Of a stretch of 64,000 nucleotides of DNA, positions 23,997-42,381 are shown one piece after another. Position 1 is the first letter of the stretch; each line of letters opens with the position of its first letter. The stretch is from an uncultured Spirochaetaceae bacterium (GTDB lineage: Bacteria; Spirochaetota; Spirochaetia; DSM-27196; SLST01), in contig CAYWJH010000007.1 in assembly GCA_964458555.1 (NCBI GenBank), positions 328-64,327 on the forward strand. Reading direction: 5' to 3'. Made by a program: the position numbers and the translations under genes. The notes beneath the pieces were generated by a model, which had not been told where the DNA came from, did not search any database, and worked only from the letters and a program-made list of their open reading frames with translations.

Positions 23997-24479
23997 CTAA
24001 CGACCGGACGCGCTCTTGCCGCTGAAGAGGTTCCGCAGCCACCCGCCGCGGCGCTTCCGTGCGGAGGTGCCGCTGCCGCCGGCGCGTCCGCTACCCACGC
24101 GACGGGCGCCCGCCTGCTGCTGACCGCCCGCGTCCGGCAACTGGCGCGGCGCCTGCGACGCGGCCGACGCGAGCGCCTCCATCTGCTTTTCGCGCGCCTT
24201 CAGCGTCTCGTCCTTCGACTTCATCGACTGCTCCTGGCTCTTCAGGCGCTCCTTCTGCATCGCGAGCTTTTCGCGGCGGGTTCGGGCGAGGTAGCTCGAG
24301 ACGTAGAGGACGAAGGAATAAAGCGCCCCGGCGACGAACGAGAAGATCGCAATGACGACGACCTGTACGTTCTCGACTTGCCAGCCGAAGAGATTGAAGC
24401 CGGTCGTCGTCCCCGCGTTCATCACCATGATGACGGCGAGAACGACGAGGCTGATGATACTGAAGATGATCCGGCCCAT
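23997..24479 (-). CDS. LapA/DUF1049-like membrane protein
   Basis: Two TM helices with the N...F.LFGW pattern followed by a charged coiled-coil tail; TGATG coupling to the upstream gene. Confidence 0.65.
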   Translation of the reverse strand: MGRIIFSIISLVVLAVIMVMNAGTTTGFNLFGWQVENVQVVVIAIFSFVAGALYSFVLYVSSYLARTRREKLAMQKERLKSQEQSMKSKDETLKAREKQMEALASAASQAPRQLPDAGGQQQAGARRVGSGRAGGSGTSARKRRGGWLRNLFSGKSASGR

Positions 24480-31475: not shown

Positions 31476-34016
31476 ATGAAGATCGTTTCGTATACCGTCG
31501 ACCCGAAAATACCCGAGGCGCTGCAGCCGCTCAAGGAGCTCGCGAGCAACCTCTGGCTGAGCTGGAACTTCGACGCGGTCATGCTGTTCATGCGGCTCGA
31601 CTACGACCTGTGGATGGAGTCGCACCAGAACCCGGCACGGCTGCTGGGAATGGTCGGCCAGGAGCGCTACGAGGAGCTCGCCGCCGACGACTCGTACCTC
31701 GCGGCGCTGAATCGCGTCTACGAGAAGTTCCTCGCGTACCGCAAGGGCGAGACCTGGTACACCGGCGAGACGACGGACGTGGTCGCCTACTTCTCGATGG
31801 AATACGGGCTGGACGTGAGCCTGCCCATCTACTCCGGCGGCCTGGGCGTACTCTCCGGCGACCACCTGAAGACGAGCTCCGACCTCGGTCTCCCGCTCGT
31901 GGGCGTGGGTCTGCTCTACCGGCAGGGCTACTTCCAGCAGTACCTCAACGCCGACGGCTACCAGCAGGAGAGCTACCCGGAGAACGACTGGTACAACATG
32001 CCGGTGACGATCTGCCGCGACGACGAGGGTGCGGCGGTCAAGATAAGCGTCCGGATCGGGGAGGCGACGGTCGTCGCCCAGATCTGGGAGGTGAGGATAG
32101 GTCGGACGTCGCTTTACCTCCTCGACACGAATATCGCCGACAATACCGAAGATCTGCGGGCGATCACCTCCACGCTCTACGGCGGGACGAAGGAGACGCG
32201 CATCAGACAGGAGATCCTGCTGGGAATCGGCGGGTTCCGCGCGCTGCGCGCGCTCGGCGTCAACCCCGCGGTCGCGCACATGAACGAGGGCCACTCGGCG
32301 TTTCTCGCGATCGAACGGATCCGTGAGCACGTCGCGCAGCACGGTCTCACCGTCGGCGAGGCGATCGAGGCCATTCGCCCTACGAGCATCTTCACGACGC
32401 ACACGCCGGTACCGGCCGGTAACGAGCGCTTTACGCCCGAGCTGATGCAGAAGTACTTCTCGAGCATCACCGGGGATCTGGAGATCGGCTTCCACGATTT
32501 CATGGCGCTCGGCCGTGAGAACCCCGACGACGAGCTCGAGCACTTCTGCATGACCGTGCTCGCGATTCGACTCTCTGCGTACAACAACGCGGTGAGCGCG
32601 CTGCACGGCGAGGTGAGCCGCGACATGTGGAAGAACCTCTGGCCGAACCTCCCCACCGAGGAGGTTCCCATCACGAGCATCACGAACGGCGTCCACATCC
32701 GCACGTGGCTCAGTCACGACATGCAGGACCTGCTCGATCGCTACTTCGGCCCGCGCTTCTACGACGATCCGACCTACCTGGACATCTGGGATCGGATCGA
32801 TCGGGTGAGCGACGAGGAGCTGTGGCGGACCCACGAGCGGCGCAAGGAACGCCTCGTCGCCTTCGCGCGCGAGCGACAGTATCAGCAGCACCGCAACCGC
32901 GGCGTCTCCGGAAGCCAGCTCACCGCGGCCACCGAGGTTCTCTCTCCGTACGCGTTCACGATCAGCTTCGCGAGGCGGTTTGCAACCTACAAGCGAGCTA
33001 CGCTGCTCTTCCGCGACAAGGAGCGGCTCTACAAGCTGTTGACGAACACCGAATACCCGGTCCAGATCATCTTCAGCGGCAAGGCGCACCCGCACGACGT
33101 CCCCGGCAAGAACCTCATCAAGGACATCTACCACTTCGCCCAACAGCCCGAGATCCGGCGGAAGGTCGTCTTCCTCGAGAACTACGACATTGGCGTGGCG
33201 AAGTACCTCGTCAGCGGCAGCGACCTCTGGCTCAACACGCCGCGGCGCCCCATGGAGGCGAGTGGGACGAGCGGCATGAAGGCCGGCATCAACGGCGTGC
33301 TGAGCTGCTCGATCCTCGACGGTTGGTGGGCCGAAGGGTACCAGCCGTCGCTCGGCTGGGCGATCGGAAGCGGCGAGCACTACGAGGACGAGGAGGAGCA
33401 GGACGAGATAGAGAGCAAGCTGCTCTACGACCTGCTCGAACGCGAGATCGTGCCCCGCTACTACGAGCGCGCGCGGGACGGTCTGCCGCGCGAGTGGATC
33501 CGCATGATGAAGTCGAGCATGCGCGAGCTCGGTCCTCAGTTCGCGAGCCACCGGATGCTCATGGAGTACGCCGACCAGTTCTACATACCCGCGCTCGAGA
33601 GCGCGAAGCGGATCGAATCGACCTCGTACGCAGGCGCGAAGGACCTCGCCGCGTACATGAAGCGGCTCGACGCCGCGTGGGCCGACCTCCGTGTCGTCGA
33701 AACCCCGACGATTCCCGACCGGACGCTCAAGGTGGGCGATTCGATGGAGCTCAGCGCGAGGGTACGGATGGACGGCCTCGAGCCCGACGAGGTCGCCGTG
33801 GAGCTCTACTACGGACCCATGAAGAGCACCGGCGAGATCGGCAGCCCGTCCTCGGCGCCGATGGAGCACACGAAGACGGAGAAGGACGGGGTCCACGTCT
33901 TCACCGCGACGATCGAGCTCGGCTACGCCGGCCGCCAGGGTCTCGCGGTACGCGTCGTCCCGAGGCACGAGCAGCTCGCCCAGCGCTTCGTGCCCGGCTA
34001 CGTCGTATGGGGATGA
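31476..34016 (+). CDS. glgP: Alpha-glucan phosphorylase
   Basis: YSGGLG.L.GD, NEGH, FTTHTPVPAG, FARRFATYKRA, EASGTSGMK PLP-lysine motif. Confidence 0.96.
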   Translation: MKIVSYTVDPKIPEALQPLKELASNLWLSWNFDAVMLFMRLDYDLWMESHQNPARLLGMVGQERYEELAADDSYLAALNRVYEKFLAYRKGETWYTGETTDVVAYFSMEYGLDVSLPIYSGGLGVLSGDHLKTSSDLGLPLVGVGLLYRQGYFQQYLNADGYQQESYPENDWYNMPVTICRDDEGAAVKISVRIGEATVVAQIWEVRIGRTSLYLLDTNIADNTEDLRAITSTLYGGTKETRIRQEILLGIGGFRALRALGVNPAVAHMNEGHSAFLAIERIREHVAQHGLTVGEAIEAIRPTSIFTTHTPVPAGNERFTPELMQKYFSSITGDLEIGFHDFMALGRENPDDELEHFCMTVLAIRLSAYNNAVSALHGEVSRDMWKNLWPNLPTEEVPITSITNGVHIRTWLSHDMQDLLDRYFGPRFYDDPTYLDIWDRIDRVSDEELWRTHERRKERLVAFARERQYQQHRNRGVSGSQLTAATEVLSPYAFTISFARRFATYKRATLLFRDKERLYKLLTNTEYPVQIIFSGKAHPHDVPGKNLIKDIYHFAQQPEIRRKVVFLENYDIGVAKYLVSGSDLWLNTPRRPMEASGTSGMKAGINGVLSCSILDGWWAEGYQPSLGWAIGSGEHYEDEEEQDEIESKLLYDLLEREIVPRYYERARDGLPREWIRMMKSSMRELGPQFASHRMLMEYADQFYIPALESAKRIESTSYAGAKDLAAYMKRLDAAWADLRVVETPTIPDRTLKVGDSMELSARVRMDGLEPDEVAVELYYGPMKSTGEIGSPSSAPMEHTKTEKDGVHVFTATIELGYAGRQGLAVRVVPRHEQLAQRFVPGYVVWG

Positions 34017-34093
34017 ACCGCCGACCGAAGTAGCCCGCGCCGCCCGCCCCGGCGGATGACCGCCGGGCGGATGACGTCTATACTCGAAGTGCC

Positions 34094-35377
34094 ATGTTCG
34101 CGAACCCGCTTCTTTCGGCGCTGTTCTTCGGTCTGCTGACCGCGGTCTCGCTGCCGCTCGGCGCGATCGTGGCGCGCTTCTGGGTGCCGCGCGATCGCGT
34201 ACTCGCCTCGCTCATGGCCTTTGGCGCCGGGGCGCTCCTTTCGGCGCTGACGATCGACCTCGTGGGAAACGCGCTCGAACACGGCAACGTCTGGCCCCTG
34301 TCGGGCGGGGCGGTGCTGGGCGGCCTGCTCTTCGTCGTTCTCAACCAGGTCGTCAACAACCAGGGCGGGTTCCTCCGCAAGTCGGCCACGACGCTGAAGT
34401 ACCTGCGCGGGCTGAAGGAGGAGCGGCTCAAAGAGCTCTTCCGCAGCATCAGCGCCGTGCCGGTCTTCAACGAGCTCCCGCCGGAGGAGATCGCCGAGCT
34501 CGTCCCGTACATCGGCACCAGAACCTTCGCGGCCGGAGACACGGTCATCCGCGAGGGCGAGCCCGGCGACAGCGTCTTCATCGTGGAGTCGGGTCGCGTG
34601 AGGATAGCGAGCAACGACACGCACGTGGCGACGCTCGGGGACGGCGACGTGCTGGGCGAGATGGCGCTCGTCACCGGGGAGCCGCGATCGGCGACCGCGG
34701 TGGCCGAAACCGAGTGTCGAGTCTGGTACATCATGAAGGACGATTTCGACGAGCTCCTCGCCGCGTCGCCGCACCTCAAGCAGGCGGTCAGCGAGCTCGC
34801 GATGGAGCGGATCTCGAACCTGCAGGAACAGCAGATCATGCACCCCGACGACGCGCGGCGCTGGTACCAGAAGGCGGCGCGCAACGTCGATCAGGAACTG
34901 CTGCAACCGACGCCGGTGGAGATCCGCGAGGCGGCGCACGAGCACGGCGGCGCGCCGCTGGCAATCTGGCTCGGCATCCTGCTCGACGGTATCCCCGAGT
35001 CGCTCGTGATCGGCGCGAGCCTCGTCCAGGCGAGCATCAGCTTCTCGCTGCTCGCCGGGCTCTTTCTGTCGAACTTCCCGGAGGCGTTGTCGAGCTCCGC
35101 GGCGATGCGGCAGGCCTCCTACGGGTTCGGCCGAATCCTCGTGATGTGGGTTTCGCTGATGCTGCTCACGGGGCTGGGAGCGCTACTGGGCAACCTCTTC
35201 TTCACCGGTGCCTCGCACGAGATGCTCGCGCTCGTGGAGGGCATCGCGGCCGGCGCGATGCTCACGATGATCGCCGAGACGATGCTGCCCGAAGCGTACC
35301 ACAAGGGCGGGACGGTGACGGGGCTGTCCACGCTGCTGGGCTTCCTCGTGGCGATCCTGTTCAAGACGCTGGAGTAG
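34094..35377 (+). CDS. ZIP-family metal transporter with inserted cyclic-nucleotide-binding domain
   Basis: ZIP TM1-3 (AFGAGALLSA), then a CNB domain (IREGEPGD...GEMAL..GEPRSATA), then ZIP TM4-8 (LDGIPES, SNFPEA, AAGAML). Confidence 0.85.
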   Translation: MFANPLLSALFFGLLTAVSLPLGAIVARFWVPRDRVLASLMAFGAGALLSALTIDLVGNALEHGNVWPLSGGAVLGGLLFVVLNQVVNNQGGFLRKSATTLKYLRGLKEERLKELFRSISAVPVFNELPPEEIAELVPYIGTRTFAAGDTVIREGEPGDSVFIVESGRVRIASNDTHVATLGDGDVLGEMALVTGEPRSATAVAETECRVWYIMKDDFDELLAASPHLKQAVSELAMERISNLQEQQIMHPDDARRWYQKAARNVDQELLQPTPVEIREAAHEHGGAPLAIWLGILLDGIPESLVIGASLVQASISFSLLAGLFLSNFPEALSSSAAMRQASYGFGRILVMWVSLMLLTGLGALLGNLFFTGASHEMLALVEGIAAGAMLTMIAETMLPEAYHKGGTVTGLSTLLGFLVAILFKTLE

Positions 35378-35431
35378 CGGCCGGTCGCGGGAAACGCGAC
35401 CGCCGGGCGGCGAGCGCGCGGCCGCCCGCGC

Positions 35432-38760: not shown

Positions 38761-38777
<17 letters not shown>
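38259..38777 (-). CDS. Hypothetical exported protein
   Basis: Signal-like LLVLALCSVAVA segment; probable GTG start overlapping the glmS end. Start uncertain. Confidence 0.5.
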
Positions 38778-40583
<1,806 letters not shown>

Positions 40584-40584
<1 letters not shown>

Positions 40585-41207
40585 CAGTTGCCTCCTAAGT
40601 TGGCGAGCTGGTTCAGCCGGCCCTTATCGAGAAGCCAGACCGCGTTCCCCTTGATCGAGAGAACGCCGCTCGAGGCGAGCTCGTCGAGATGCTCGCGGAC
40701 GAGCTCTACCGGGGTCTCCAGGTTGAGCGAGATCTGCTCGACGGTTCGGTCGAGCGGCAGATGCTGCTCGTCGGGCTTTCGCTCGCCGAAGCGCGTGTAG
40801 AGATTGAGCGCGATCAAACTGTGCTGATTGCGCTGGTAGAGCATCTGAATCTGGCTGTTCGCGTTCTGGAGCCTGCGGCTGAGCTTGTCGATGATGTTGA
40901 GCGCGATCTTCGCGTTCTTCTCGATCATCCCCATGAAGCCCTGCCGGTCGAACGCGAGGAGCTGCGTCGTGTTGACCGCCGTCGCCGTCGCGGTCCGCGC
41001 GATGCGCGACACGATCGCCATTTCGCCGAAGAAATCGCCCTTCTCGAGGACCGCGAGCTCGTGCTCGCGTCCGCCGATGTTCTTGGAGATCTTCACCTGG
41101 CCGGTCTGGATGATGTACATGTGGTCGCCCTGGTCACCTTCGCGGAAGATGACCCGGCCGGCCTCGAAGGTCTGGCCGTATTTCTCGAAGAGCGGATTCT
41201 CTGGCAT
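40584..41207 (-). CDS. Crp/Fnr-like cyclic-nucleotide-binding protein
   Basis: IFREGDQGD, FFGEMAI...RTATA, C-terminal putative HTH. Confidence 0.85.
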
Positions 41208-41336
41208 GCAGACTCCCCTGAGTTTTCGTTGAGTATACCTCGTGGGATCTCCGTTCTCAAGCTCGCGGCGCGCTCCGGCCCGGCGGCTTTTGAAGCACGA
41301 CGCGCTCACGCCGCGTAGGAAAGATGGGAGGAGACT

Positions 41337-42356
41337 ATGCGAAGACTATGGCTGCTCTGTGTGGGTTTGATGACGACGTCGTGCGCGCCGCTTCCGCCCA
41401 TCCCCTTCGTCACGGATGCCGATCTGGCCGCACCGGTCGTCACGGACCTCCGGCTCGCGAGCCCGGTCGAGCTCGAGGTCGCCTTCGACGAACCGGTGAG
41501 CGTCGTTTCCGAGCCGCTGGGCTCGGCGTCGGTCGGGGAGGTGGCCCTGCGCGCGGAGGAGACGCCGCAACCGGTGGTGGGATTCCTCTTCGAGGCGGCG
41601 CCCTCGCCTGCGGCCGAGCACCACGTGGAGGCGCAGGTCGCCGACGAGGCGGGCAACCACCTGCGATTCGTCGCCCGCTTCTACGGGCTCAACCCCCTGC
41701 TTCCGGCGATGATCATCAACGAGCTCACGACTCAGGGCTCGGGCAACCACCCGGACCTCGTCGAGATCCGCGTCCTCACCGACGGCAACCTCGCCGGAGC
41801 GTGCCTCTACGAGGGCGTGCCCGGCAACTGGGAGCAGCGCTTCGTCTTCCCGTCGGTGGACGTCGTCGCGGGAGACTACCTCGTCGTGCACTTCAAACCT
41901 GAGGGCATCGCGGACGAGGTGAACGAGACCTCGCGCCGCGACGCGTCCGGCGGCCTGGACGCGTCGCCCGAGGCGTGGGACTTCTGGGTAGACGGAGGCA
42001 CGGGGTTATCGGGGAACAACGGCGCGATCTCGCTCTGCGAGAACCCGCTGGGAGGGTATGTAGACGCGGTGCTCTACTCGAACCGCACGAGCGACTCCGA
42101 CGAGCGGTACCGGGGCTTCGCGAGCACGAAGGTGATGAATCGTGCCGATGCGCTCGCGGCCGCCGGCGCGTGGACGTTCGCCGGGGAGGCGGTCGCGCCG
42201 GAGGACGCGGTCGACCCGGAGCCGAGCACCGCGACCCGCTCGATGGCGCGCAGGTCGGACGGAACAGACACCAACTCCCGGTCGGACTGGCACATCACGC
42301 CCACGCGCGGGTTGACCCCAGGAACCGAGAACACCGACGAGGTATACGAGCCGTAG
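41337..42356 (+). CDS. Lipoprotein with lamin-tail-like domain
   Basis: Lipobox-like TTS-C; IINEL...DLVEIR pattern; GGAGG SD. Confidence 0.6.
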   Translation: MRRLWLLCVGLMTTSCAPLPPIPFVTDADLAAPVVTDLRLASPVELEVAFDEPVSVVSEPLGSASVGEVALRAEETPQPVVGFLFEAAPSPAAEHHVEAQVADEAGNHLRFVARFYGLNPLLPAMIINELTTQGSGNHPDLVEIRVLTDGNLAGACLYEGVPGNWEQRFVFPSVDVVAGDYLVVHFKPEGIADEVNETSRRDASGGLDASPEAWDFWVDGGTGLSGNNGAISLCENPLGGYVDAVLYSNRTSDSDERYRGFASTKVMNRADALAAAGAWTFAGEAVAPEDAVDPEPSTATRSMARRSDGTDTNSRSDWHITPTRGLTPGTENTDEVYEP

Positions 42357-42381
42357 GGCGGCCCCCGCTACGCGCCCCTCG

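What the first reader, a model, noticed from the sequence alone, without database searches (positions are those of the whole stretch)
34094..35377. ZIP metal transporter with a cyclic-nucleotide-binding domain in its TM3-TM4 loop
Seen: a complete CNB domain with an intact phosphate-binding cassette (GEMAL..GEPRSATA) splits the ZIP fold exactly where the cytosolic regulatory loop lies. TM4/TM5 read DGIPE and SNFPE rather than the His-containing HNxPEG of characterised ZIPs. Known: ZIPs import divalent metals; CNB domains gate channels and exchangers. I know of no characterised cNMP-regulated ZIP. Inference: second-messenger control of metal uptake, possibly with altered ion selectivity.
Basis: partly seen in the sequence, partly recalled or inferred. 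Interest (0 to 1): 0.72.

Follow-up and report, generated by a model that had tools for sequence, protein, structure and literature searches.

The report
Cyclic-nucleotide-sensing ZIP metal transporter family
This gene encodes a ZIP-type metal transporter whose cytosolic regulatory loop is replaced by an intact cyclic-nucleotide sensor; it belongs to a large, widespread, unstudied family that probably couples cAMP/cGMP signalling to metal uptake.

Summary
Window 34094..35377 (+) encodes a 427-aa protein with three TM helices, a complete cyclic-nucleotide-binding (CNB) domain, a conserved linker and five more TM helices. Pfam finds cNMP_binding (E=1.9e-25) and Zip (E=1.8e-11, above cut-off). 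The membrane part aligns to BbZIP (E~1e-7), and a model of TM4-8 hits only BbZIP in the PDB (TM-score 0.63-0.67). The CNB domain keeps the Gly-Glu...Arg phosphate-binding cassette and the lid Arg of MloK1.

It is not a one-off. At least 515 species genomes in over 20 lineages encode relatives, almost all uncultured. No paper on the fusion was found.

First, the unusual metal site is a trait of the whole ZIP clade, including CNB-less members: Asp for His177 in 267/267, a degenerate M2 site, and an acidic residue at the TM2 selectivity-filter position in 205/208. Second, a tandem-CNB subclass has replaced the cassette Arg with His and probably senses something else.

Best reading: a cNMP-regulated elevator-type ZIP importer, with the CNB domain replacing the loop that acts as a built-in Zn sensor in BbZIP. 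The all-oxygen site suggests a harder cation than Zn2+. Ligand binding, regulation and substrate are untested. This is a new variant of a known kind.

The parts
34056..34084 (+). Tentative sigma-70-like promoter (ATGACC-17-TATACT) ending 10 nt before the start codon. No Shine-Dalgarno is visible, so the leader would be very short or absent.
   Evidence: one match where 0.1 is expected from shuffles. Sequence read. This is a consensus match only and function is not shown.
34094..35377 (+). Complete CDS of the 427-aa CNB-ZIP protein, including the stop codon TAG at 35375-35377.
   Evidence: The identical protein P0001 is called on a 226-kb metagenome contig.
34094..34363 (+). ZIP TM1-TM3 (residues 1-90). 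It contains the invariant acidic residue D55 (nt 34256-34258), equivalent to BbZIP S106, ZIP8 Q180 and ZIP4 H379, the selectivity-filter position.
   Evidence: Helices in the model; alignment to BbZIP TM2-TM3; Asp or Glu in 205 of 208 members; position equivalence from PMC10372143.
34364..34381 (+). GGFLRK motif (residues 91-96) at the cytosolic end of TM3, where the insertion begins.
   Evidence: G91 in 207/208, R95 in 207/208 and K96 in 187/208; invariant in A1.
34382..34816 (+). Cyclic-nucleotide-binding domain (residues 97-241): N-terminal helices, an 8-strand beta-roll, the phosphate-binding cassette GEMALVTGEPRSATA (residues 188-202, nt 34655-34699), and B/C helices with the lid Arg R239 (nt 34808-34810).
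   Evidence: Pfam E=1.9e-25. PDB sequence hits to PKG, PKA-R, MloK1 and HCN. Foldseek to the MloK1 CNBD gives TM-score 0.81 at 38% identity. R198 maps to MloK1 R307 and R239 to MloK1 R348 in an ungapped alignment.
34817..34954 (+). Conserved linker from the CNB C-helix to TM4 (residues 242-287). It has invariant W257, near-invariant A254 and P272, and the motif EI(K/R)EAA..H.GAP.
   Evidence: Conservation. The model has low confidence here (pLDDT 41-52 for residues 241-270), so its position relative to the membrane domain is not established.
34955..35374 (+). ZIP TM4-TM8 (residues 288-427). Motifs are LDGIPES in TM4 (nt 34982-35002), LSNFPEA in TM5 (nt 35066-35086), T359 in TM6, and AETMLPEA in TM7 (nt 35273-35296).
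   Evidence: BbZIP alignment at E=9.6e-8. Foldseek on the half-model returns only BbZIP with confidence: 8ght_A and 8czj_A at probability 1.00 and TM-score 0.63-0.67. Conservation statistics.

Best explanation
The gene encodes an inner-membrane ZIP-family (elevator-type) divalent-metal importer. Its cytosolic TM3-TM4 loop has been replaced by a ligand-competent cyclic-nucleotide-binding domain.

Shown here: the 3TM-CNB-5TM architecture; ZIP homology and fold; an intact phosphate-binding cassette and lid Arg; very strong conservation of the transport-site residues and of both linkers; and a wide phylogenetic spread.

Inferred: the CNB domain binds cAMP and/or cGMP in the cytoplasm. It is tethered on one side to scaffold helix TM3 and on the other to transport-domain helix TM4. 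The ligand-induced rearrangement of its N-terminal helices and B/C helices would therefore change how freely the transport domain (TM1/4/5/6) slides against the scaffold (TM2/3/7/8), or whether the cytosolic egress is capped. Either effect would switch metal uptake. By analogy with PKA-R, Epac, HCN, MloK1 and SLC9C1, where the apo CNB domain is inhibitory, activation by cNMP is somewhat more likely than inhibition.

More speculative: the primary site is built only from oxygen ligands (D298, E302, E330, plus or minus S326 and N327, joined by D55 in the outward-facing state), and the second site (M2) is degenerate. The preferred substrate is therefore more likely a harder cation such as Mn2+, Fe2+, Mg2+ or Ca2+ than Zn2+.
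For: - ORF and domains.
- ZIP homology: Pfam Zip above its gathering score; BbZIP at E=9.6e-8 for TM4-8 and about 1e-5 for TM2-8; the TM4-8 model matches only BbZIP with confidence (probability 1.00, TM-score 0.63-0.67, next hit probability 0.11).
- CNB competence: best structural match is the MloK1 CNBD at 38% identity and TM-score 0.81. The cassette Gly-Glu...Arg is kept in 141 of 179 single-CNB members, including this one. R198 and R239 align without gaps to MloK1 R307 and R348.
- Residue map to BbZIP.
- Conservation: D298 267/267, E302 264/267, N327 265/267, E330 266/267, acidic TM2 residue 205/208, R95 207/208.
- Family size and spread: 3846 hits, at least 515 species genomes, and 129 clusters at 50% identity with E<=1e-30.
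- Mechanistic frame from the literature: transport and scaffold domain definitions, and M1 as the primary site (PMC9873690); loop L(3,4) as a built-in Zn sensor that caps the egress site and inhibits uptake (PMC10256678); the TM2/TM5 pair as a selectivity filter where His/His favours Zn and Gln/Glu allows Fe, Mn and Cd (PMC10372143); cAMP modulation of another CNBD-bearing solute carrier, SLC9C1 (PMC13095418).
Against: - No experiment bears on this protein or any relative.
- No cyclase gene lies within 10 kb on either side, and the genome's capacity to make cNMP was not assessed.
- There is no conserved gene neighbour pointing to a particular metal.
- About 21% of single-CNB relatives and nearly all tandem-CNB relatives lack the canonical cassette, so CNB-like domains in this family do not all need cNMP.
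- The direction of regulation and the substrate are arguments by analogy and by coordination chemistry only.
- S326 is Ala in 22% of members, so the ligand set is uncertain.
Confidence: 0.6

Rival explanations
1. A ZIP transporter whose inserted CNB-fold domain does not respond to cyclic nucleotides. It would be a structural or dimerisation module, or a sensor for another ligand such as a metal ion, another nucleotide or a metabolite.
For: CNB-fold domains with other ligands are well known from established knowledge (for example CooA and FNR). Within this family, the tandem-CNB class has lost the cassette Glu and Arg in 42 of 43 cases for each domain, usually in favour of a conserved His. About 21% of single-CNB members are also non-canonical. 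No cyclase lies near the gene.
Against: The window protein itself has the full canonical cassette GEMALVTGEPRSATA, and its lid Arg aligns with MloK1 R348. It is 38% identical to a CNBD that crystallises with cAMP and cGMP. G188 and R198 are invariant, and E189 is nearly invariant, among its 30 closest cross-phylum relatives.
Confidence: 0.15
2. An ordinary zinc importer, as one source's name 'zinc transporter ZupT' implies. It would be regulated by cNMP, but the altered motifs would not change selectivity.
For: All well-characterised prokaryotic ZIPs carry Zn2+, often with broad specificity. The P-E cores of TM4 and TM5 are kept. Carboxylate-rich sites can bind Zn2+. One database name reads ZupT.
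Against: The only nitrogen ligand of M1 (His177) is Asp in 267 of 267 members. The M2 ligands N178, D208 and E240 become Gly, Asn and Thr. The filter pair is Asp/Ser rather than His/His. In ZIP8 and ZIP4, swapping His for oxygen ligands at the filter pair shifts preference away from Zn (PMC10372143). The His-based Zn sensor of loop L(3,4) is absent.
Confidence: 0.2
3. Not a transporter. The ZIP-like membrane domain would serve only as an anchor or metal sensor for a cNMP receptor, acting like a transceptor or a cNMP sink.
For: Function is untested, and some transporter folds have been recruited as sensors.
Against: The residues that form the transport pathway in BbZIP are the most conserved in the protein: D298, E302, N327, E330, the two helix-breaking prolines and TM7 P-E are each at least 98% conserved. 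That pattern is expected for an active translocation site. There is no output domain.
Confidence: 0.05

Closest known systems
BbZIP (Bordetella bronchiseptica ZIP; PDB 5TSA, 8CZJ, 8GHT, 8J1M), GufA/ZupT-type prokaryotic ZIP
   Same: It shares the 8-TM fold with a 3+5 arrangement. The P-E cores of TM4 and TM5 and the TM7 P-E are kept. The regulatory element sits in the TM3-TM4 cytosolic loop. It is the only confident sequence and fold match in the PDB.
   Different: BbZIP's loop is a short His-containing Zn2+ sensor (D144/H149/H151 with E276); here it is a 145-residue CNB domain with conserved linkers. The residue changes are H177 to D, N178 to G, Q207 to S, D208 to N, E240 to T, H275 to E, E276 to T, M99 to L and S106 to D. 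The binuclear centre is therefore probably mononuclear and built only from oxygen ligands.
MloK1 / SthK / HCN / CNG cyclic-nucleotide-gated channels
   Same: The CNB domain is closest to the MloK1 CNBD (38% identity, TM-score 0.81). It has the same cassette and the same lid Arg spacing. In both cases a CNB domain controls ion flux through a membrane protein.
   Different: Those proteins are tetrameric pore-loop channels with the CNBD attached C-terminally through a C-linker. Here the CNB domain is inserted inside a carrier, between a scaffold helix and a transport-domain helix, so both of its ends are tethered.
SLC9C1 (sperm Na+/H+ exchanger with a voltage sensor and CNBD)
   Same: It is a secondary transporter whose activity is modulated by cAMP binding to an appended CNBD (PMC13095418). 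It is the best precedent for cNMP control of a carrier rather than a channel.
   Different: SLC9C1 is eukaryotic, has a different fold (NHE, 13 TM), carries its CNBD C-terminally, acts through a voltage-sensor domain, and transports monovalent ions.
Human ZIP8/ZIP14 (LIV-1 subfamily, multi-metal ZIPs)
   Same: They deviate from the His-rich consensus at the TM2/TM5 selectivity-filter pair towards oxygen ligands (Gln/Glu), and this goes with Fe2+, Mn2+ and Cd2+ transport (PMC10372143).
   Different: ZIP8 and ZIP14 keep His at the TM4 M1 position and have no CNB domain. The pair here is Asp/Ser, and the TM4 His is also replaced.

Membership tests
ZIP (Zrt/Irt-like protein) family, Pfam PF02535 / TCDB 2.A.5 | Significant sequence match to the family profile and to a solved member | tested here: met
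   Pfam Zip scores 44.3 bits against a gathering score of 35.1, E=1.8e-11. BbZIP 5tsa_A scores E=9.6e-8 over TM4-8, and 8j1m, 7z6m and 8ght score E about 1e-5 over TM2-8.
ZIP (Zrt/Irt-like protein) family, Pfam PF02535 / TCDB 2.A.5 | Eight TM helices arranged 3+5 with a variable cytosolic loop between TM3 and TM4 | tested here: met
   The AF2 model has three N-terminal and five C-terminal TM helices. Basic residues flank the TM1-2 and TM3-4 loops, which fits a cytosolic location (read directly from the sequence).
ZIP (Zrt/Irt-like protein) family, Pfam PF02535 / TCDB 2.A.5 | ZIP three-dimensional fold | tested here: met
   The TM4-8 half-model gives BbZIP 8ght_A and 8czj_A at probability 1.00, TM-score 0.67 and 0.63, and rmsd 3.7-4.0 A over about 144 columns. 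No other hit exceeds probability 0.21. Caveats: the model's pLDDT is only 67, the Foldseek E-values are only 0.03-0.05, and TM1-3 were not tested by fold.
ZIP (Zrt/Irt-like protein) family, Pfam PF02535 / TCDB 2.A.5 | Canonical binuclear metal centre (TM4 H-N-x-P-E, TM5 H/Q-D/E/N-x-P-E, TM6 E) | tested here: not met
   Only the P-E cores are kept. H177 becomes D298, N178 becomes G299, Q207 becomes S326, D208 becomes N327 and E240 becomes T359, and these replacements are conserved family-wide. I therefore file the protein as a divergent ZIP clade rather than a canonical ZupT/GufA member.
ZIP (Zrt/Irt-like protein) family, Pfam PF02535 / TCDB 2.A.5 | Transport of divalent metal ions into the cytoplasm | not testable with these tools
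   This needs uptake assays.
Cyclic-nucleotide-binding (CNB) domain, Pfam PF00027 | Eight-stranded beta-roll flanked by N-terminal and B/C helices | tested here: met
   Pfam E=1.9e-25. DSSP on the model shows the beta-roll strands between residues 141 and 214 and helices at 97-139 and 215-241. Foldseek to MloK1, HCN, PKA and PKG CNBDs gives E about 1e-8 to 1e-9 and target TM-scores up to 0.84.
Cyclic-nucleotide-binding (CNB) domain, Pfam PF00027 | Phosphate-binding cassette with Gly-Glu (ribose 2'-OH) and Arg-Ser/Thr/Ala (phosphate) | tested here: met
   The protein has G188-E189...R198-S199, aligned to the PKG and PKA-RI cassettes. G188 and R198 are invariant, and E189 is nearly invariant, in the 31-sequence alignment. 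The Gly-Glu...Arg set is kept in 141 of 179 single-CNB members.
Cyclic-nucleotide-binding (CNB) domain, Pfam PF00027 | Lid or capping residue on the C-helix that contacts the base | tested here: met
   R239, invariant in A1, aligns without gaps to MloK1 residue 348, while R198 aligns to residue 307. That R348 is the base-contacting residue is from my own knowledge of MloK1.
Cyclic-nucleotide-binding (CNB) domain, Pfam PF00027 | Measured binding of cAMP or cGMP, and the selectivity between them | not testable with these tools
   A Ser after the cassette Arg, as in MloK1, does not decide between cAMP and cGMP.
Cyclic-nucleotide-gated channels and CNBD-regulated carriers (MloK1, HCN, CNG, SLC9C1) | CNBD appended C-terminally to the membrane domain through a C-linker or helical bundle | tested here: not met
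   Here the CNB domain is an internal insertion between TM3 and TM4. The protein may work like these systems but is not a member of any of those families.

The most novel reading that the evidence does not exclude
The family is not a zinc transporter. It would be a second-messenger-gated entry route for a hard divalent cation (Mn2+, Fe2+, Mg2+ or Ca2+), built on an elevator-type carrier. That would make it a prokaryotic functional counterpart of cyclic-nucleotide-gated cation channels. The CNB domain would act as a ligand-controlled clutch between the scaffold and transport domains. Sister subclasses (the tandem His-containing pseudo-CNB class and the CNB-less class) would have rewired the same loop to other signals.
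Probability: 0.3. Interest if true: 0.8.

Novelty: new variant of a known kind. Interest (0 to 1): 0.62.

Why it matters
ZIP transporters are central to zinc, iron and manganese homeostasis from bacteria to humans. How their activity is switched after translation is still poorly understood, and the only structural example is a short Zn-sensing loop in BbZIP. A natural ZIP whose regulatory loop is a well-understood, ligand-controlled module would help in three ways. It would give a tractable handle on the elevator cycle, since the transporter could be switched with cAMP or cGMP for cryo-EM and kinetics. It would define a new class of bacterial cNMP effector linking second-messenger signalling directly to metal uptake. 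Its invariant all-oxygen site and acidic selectivity-filter residue would also provide a natural test of the rules for ZIP metal selectivity proposed from ZIP8/ZIP4 engineering. The family is large and spans many phyla, but it sits almost entirely in uncultured lineages, which probably explains why it has not been studied.

Tried and rejected

I used the contiguous TM4-8 piece instead. That model was mediocre (pLDDT 67, with TM7 and TM8 fused into one helix) but still gave BbZIP as the only confident hit. TM1-3 were therefore tested by sequence only.

3. Model coordinates are not exposed to scripts. I could not measure site geometry or look for a CNB-membrane interface.

4. The conserved-neighbourhood analysis of 66 loci found no universal partner gene. 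The recurrent Bacteroidota neighbours (DsbD_2 His-rich protein, Kup, DUF4290) come from closely related genomes, with the DsbD_2 proteins 72-85% identical to each other. I rejected them as functional evidence.

5. Pfam scans of relatives with long, CNB-negative loops (P0220, P0243, P0265, P0235) found no other domain.

6. Five literature searches for the fusion found nothing relevant.

7. No RNA runs hold the gene, so there is no expression evidence.

8. My first PBC tally had a column-mapping bug. It was corrected, and only one search is used.

9. I considered that the ORF might be a spurious high-GC frame. I rejected this because of the domain E-values and orthologues at 55-96% identity with conserved motifs.
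Full report
**1. What is in the sequence**

Window 34094..35377 (+) is a complete ATG-to-TAG ORF of 427 aa. Pfam finds cNMP_binding at residues 143-224 (E=1.9e-25, 89.1 bits against a cut-off of 27.5). It also finds Zip (PF02535) in two stretches, the best at 277-419 (E=1.8e-11, 44.3 bits against 35.1). NCBIfam has no model for the whole protein and reports only sub-threshold CNB-domain matches to Pat, CRP and family 2B encapsulin.

An AlphaFold2 model built on 31 cross-phylum homologues has mean pLDDT 79.6 and pTM 0.65. Its layout is:
- TM helices at 5-29, 34-62 and 66-89.
- A helical segment at 97-139, an eight-strand beta-roll at 141-214 with a short cassette helix at 189-194, and B/C helices at 215-241.
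- A poorly predicted segment (residues 241-270, pLDDT 41-52).
- TM helices at 288-312, 317-340, 345-370, 375-405 and 408-426.

**2. The membrane part is a ZIP**

With the CNB domain cut out, the only PDB sequences matched are those of BbZIP. The E-value is 9.6e-8 over TM4-8 for 5tsa, and about 1e-5 over TM2-8 for 8j1m, 7z6m and 8ght.

Foldseek with the full model returned only CNB domains, so I modelled TM4-8 alone (pLDDT 67). Its only confident PDB matches are BbZIP 8ght_A and 8czj_A, at probability 1.00, TM-score 0.67 and 0.63, and rmsd 3.7-4.0 A over about 144 columns. The next hit has probability 0.11.

The alignment gives these residue equivalences (BbZIP to this protein):

| BbZIP | This protein |
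|---|---|
| M99 | L49 |
| S106 | D55 |
| H177 | D298 |
| N178 | G299 |
| E181 | E302 |
| Q207 | S326 |
| D208 | N327 |
| E211 | E330 |
| E240 | T359 |
| H275 | E395 |
| E276 | T396 |

**3. The CNB domain looks ligand-competent**

The best sequence matches are the cNMP-binding domains of PKG, PKA-R, MloK1 and HCN. The best structural match is the MloK1 CNBD, at 38% identity and TM-score 0.81.

The cassette reads G188-E189-M-A-L-V-T-G-E-P-R198-S199-A-T-A and aligns residue for residue with the PKG and PKA-RI cassettes. An ungapped alignment to full-length MloK1 (2zd9_A residues 289-348 against query 180-239) places R198 on residue 307 and the invariant R239 on residue 348. From my own knowledge of MloK1, these are the phosphate-binding Arg and the C-helix Arg that contacts the base. 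The sequence does not reveal selectivity between cAMP and cGMP.

**4. It is a large, conserved and unstudied family**

- The whole protein finds 3846 proteins at E<=1e-5. The top 120 are nearly all about 430 aa with the same two Pfam domains and 44-72% identity, apart from a few ~610-aa relatives. They carry names such as 'cyclic nucleotide-binding domain-containing protein' or 'CRP-like cAMP-binding protein', and once 'zinc transporter ZupT'.
- The best 80 are almost all MAGs. They come from Spirochaetota, Bacteroidota, Latescibacterota, Rokubacteria/Methylomirabilota, Gammaproteobacteria (Pseudohongiella, Oceanococcaceae, SAR86), Alphaproteobacteria, Thermodesulfobacteriota, Elusimicrobiota, Fibrobacterota, Nitrospirae, Omnitrophota, Myxococcota, Gemmatimonadales, Atribacteria, several candidate phyla, and one bin labelled 'archaeon'.
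- The closest match, at 96% identity, is an uncultured Spirochaetaceae MAG. The gene is found in microbial-mat and salt-pan metagenomes.
- An exhaustive search with TM4-8 against 1.84 billion cluster representatives gives 129 clusters at E<=1e-30, 926 at <=1e-10 and 2414 at <=1e-3.
- Five literature searches found no paper on a ZIP with a CNB domain.

**5. Architecture classes**

I built local HMMs for the three modules and scanned the 269 proteins held. The classes are:
- 160 proteins with TM1-3, one CNB domain and TM4-8.
- 42 or more with two tandem CNB-like domains (about 610 aa).
- 11 with no detectable CNB domain. These range from a 248-aa protein with a minimal loop (P0269) to proteins with 115-195-residue loops that match no Pfam family.
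- The rest are fragments.

A 696-aa variant comes from a transcriptome of the green alga Pyramimonas. The tandem class occurs in cultured cyanobacteria, namely Leptolyngbya sp. PCC 7375 and Adonisia turfae CCMR0081.

Cassette integrity differs sharply between classes. Gly-Glu...Arg is kept in 141 of 179 single-CNB domains, including this one. It is kept in only 1 of 43 first domains and 1 of 43 second domains of the tandem class, where the Arg is mostly a conserved His (consensus GGxSFLTGxRHTxTA). The cNMP reading therefore applies to the single-CNB class and probably not to the tandem class.

**6. The metal site is a clade trait, not a consequence of the fusion**

Conservation was measured across 267 TM4-8 modules and 208 TM1-3 modules, covering all architecture classes:

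| Position | Conservation |
|---|---|
| D298 | 267/267 |
| G299 | Gly 232, Ala 18, Ser 9 |
| E302 | 264/267 |
| S326 | Ser 206, Ala 59 |
| N327 | 265/267 |
| E330 | 266/267 |
| T359 | Thr 225, Ser 19 |
| E395 | Glu 177, Gln 49 |
| T396 | 248/267 |
| E400 | 265/267 |
| D55 | Asp 150, Glu 55 of 208 |
| R95 | 207/208 |

PMC9873690 defines the binuclear centre as M99, H177, N178, E181, Q207, D208, E211 and E240, with M1 as the primary transport site. Measured against that definition:
- M1 becomes Asp/Glu/(Ser)/Glu, so its only nitrogen ligand is lost.
- M2 loses three of its ligands, which become Gly, Asn and Thr.

PMC10372143 shows that BbZIP S106, ZIP8 Q180, ZIP4 H379 and IRT1 H104 occupy one TM2 position. 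That position pairs with the first TM5 motif residue (ZIP8 E343, ZIP4 H536) to form a selectivity filter in the outward-facing state. His/His favours Zn2+, and Gln/Glu allows Fe2+, Mn2+ and Cd2+. Here the pair is an invariant acidic residue with Ser or Ala.

An all-oxygen, carboxylate-rich and probably mononuclear site argues for a harder cation than Zn2+. This is inference from coordination chemistry and is not shown.

**7. Likely mechanism**

In BbZIP the transport domain is TM1/4/5/6 and the scaffold and dimerisation domain is TM2/3/7/8. On metal release, the cytosolic end of TM4 swings away from TM3 and TM7 (PMC9873690). Loop L(3,4), through D144, H149 and H151 together with E276, forms an egress-site Zn sensor that inhibits uptake (PMC10256678).

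In this family that loop is replaced by a CNB domain anchored at both ends:
- At the TM3 end by the invariant GGFLRK motif.
- At the TM4 end by a conserved 45-residue linker (invariant W257, then the EI(K/R)EAA..H.GAP motif).

The two ends of a CNB domain, its N-terminal helices and its B/C helices, are the parts that move on ligand binding (established knowledge of PKA-R, Epac, HCN and MloK1). The simplest model is therefore a ligand-controlled brake or cap on the elevator movement or on egress. By analogy with other CNB effectors, and with SLC9C1, where cAMP releases an inhibitory CNBD contact (PMC13095418), activation by cNMP is more likely than inhibition.

All of this section is inference.

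**8. Gene context**

The gene follows glgP, which ends at 34016, after a 77-nt spacer. The spacer holds one sigma-70-like match (ATGACC-17-TATACT, 34056-34084) ending 10 nt before the ATG, and there is no Shine-Dalgarno. The gene converges on a DUF554 membrane-protein gene.

Within 10 kb on either side there is no cyclase or metal-homeostasis gene. A stand-alone CNB-domain protein lies directly downstream of glmS. Across 66 loci no neighbour is universally conserved.

**9. Verdict**

This is a new variant of known kinds (ZIP carrier plus CNB sensor). It is widespread and already visible as a domain architecture in databases, but to the extent I could search it is uncharacterised. Confidence levels:
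- About 0.9 that it is a ZIP-fold membrane protein with a canonical CNB domain.
- About 0.6 that cNMP regulates metal transport.
- About 0.3 that the substrate is a hard cation rather than Zn2+.

Noticed in passing
Relatives P0073, P0083, P0113, P0117, P0121-P0141 and others; loci L082-L090 (e.g. L089:3001-4818, Leptolyngbya sp. PCC 7375): A subclass of about 610 aa carries two tandem CNB-like domains in the same loop. In both domains the cassette Glu and Arg are lost (1 of 43 canonical in each), and the Arg is replaced mostly by a conserved His (consensus GGxSFLTGxRHTxTA). This suggests a different ligand, possibly a metal ion. The subclass occurs in cultured cyanobacteria.
   Followed up: partly
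Relatives P0269 (248 aa), P0176, P0227, P0264; P0220, P0243, P0265, P0235: CNB-less members of the same ZIP clade keep the D-x-x-P-E / S-N-x-P-E / T-M-x-P-E motifs. Some have minimal TM3-TM4 loops. Others have 115-195-residue loops with no Pfam match, so the loop appears to be a hot spot for swapping regulatory modules.
   Followed up: partly
Relative P0242 / P0293 (696-724 aa): A family member with a much longer loop (CNB domain plus about 300 extra residues) comes from a Pyramimonas (green alga) transcriptome, so the clade reaches eukaryotic phytoplankton.
   Followed up: no
window 40587-41309 (-), directly downstream of glmS (38761-40584, -): A small stand-alone protein has only a cNMP_binding domain (E=4.7e-25) and no detectable DNA-binding domain. 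Its start abuts the glmS stop, so the two are probably co-transcribed. It is a second putative cNMP receptor within 6 kb of the CNB-ZIP gene.
   Followed up: partly
window about 24204-24434 (-) (= L081:111-341): A 76-aa gene is annotated with PF22277 EncFtn-like (encapsulated ferritin). Separately, the CNB domain of the target gives a sub-threshold NCBIfam match to family 2B encapsulin shell proteins, which also carry an inserted CNB domain. No link between the two was examined.
   Followed up: no
L045, L046, L047, L049, L054, L055, L057, L071 (e.g. L046:5256-5966, +): In one group of Bacteroidota genomes the CNB-ZIP gene is preceded, about 35 bp upstream on the same strand, by a DsbD_2-family (PF13386) membrane protein with a long His-rich loop. 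This may be a metal transporter and an operon partner. The eight loci are closely related (72-85% identity), so this is weak evidence.
   Followed up: partly
window 35383-35401: A perfect 7-bp GC-rich hairpin (GGTCGCG-ggaaa-CGCGACC) lies 6 nt after the stop codon, between the convergent CNB-ZIP and DUF554 genes. It has no T-run, so the terminator scan did not call it.
   Followed up: no
L066 (DATKXY010000234.1): A full-length family member (46% identity over residues 4-422) sits on a contig of a MAG labelled only 'archaeon'. It could be a real archaeal occurrence or a binning or labelling artefact.
   Followed up: no
window about 41333-42365 (= L081:17240-18272): Two adjacent genes carry the TP_1001_2nd domain (named after a Treponema pallidum protein). 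This fits the Spirochaetaceae assignment of the window.
   Followed up: no
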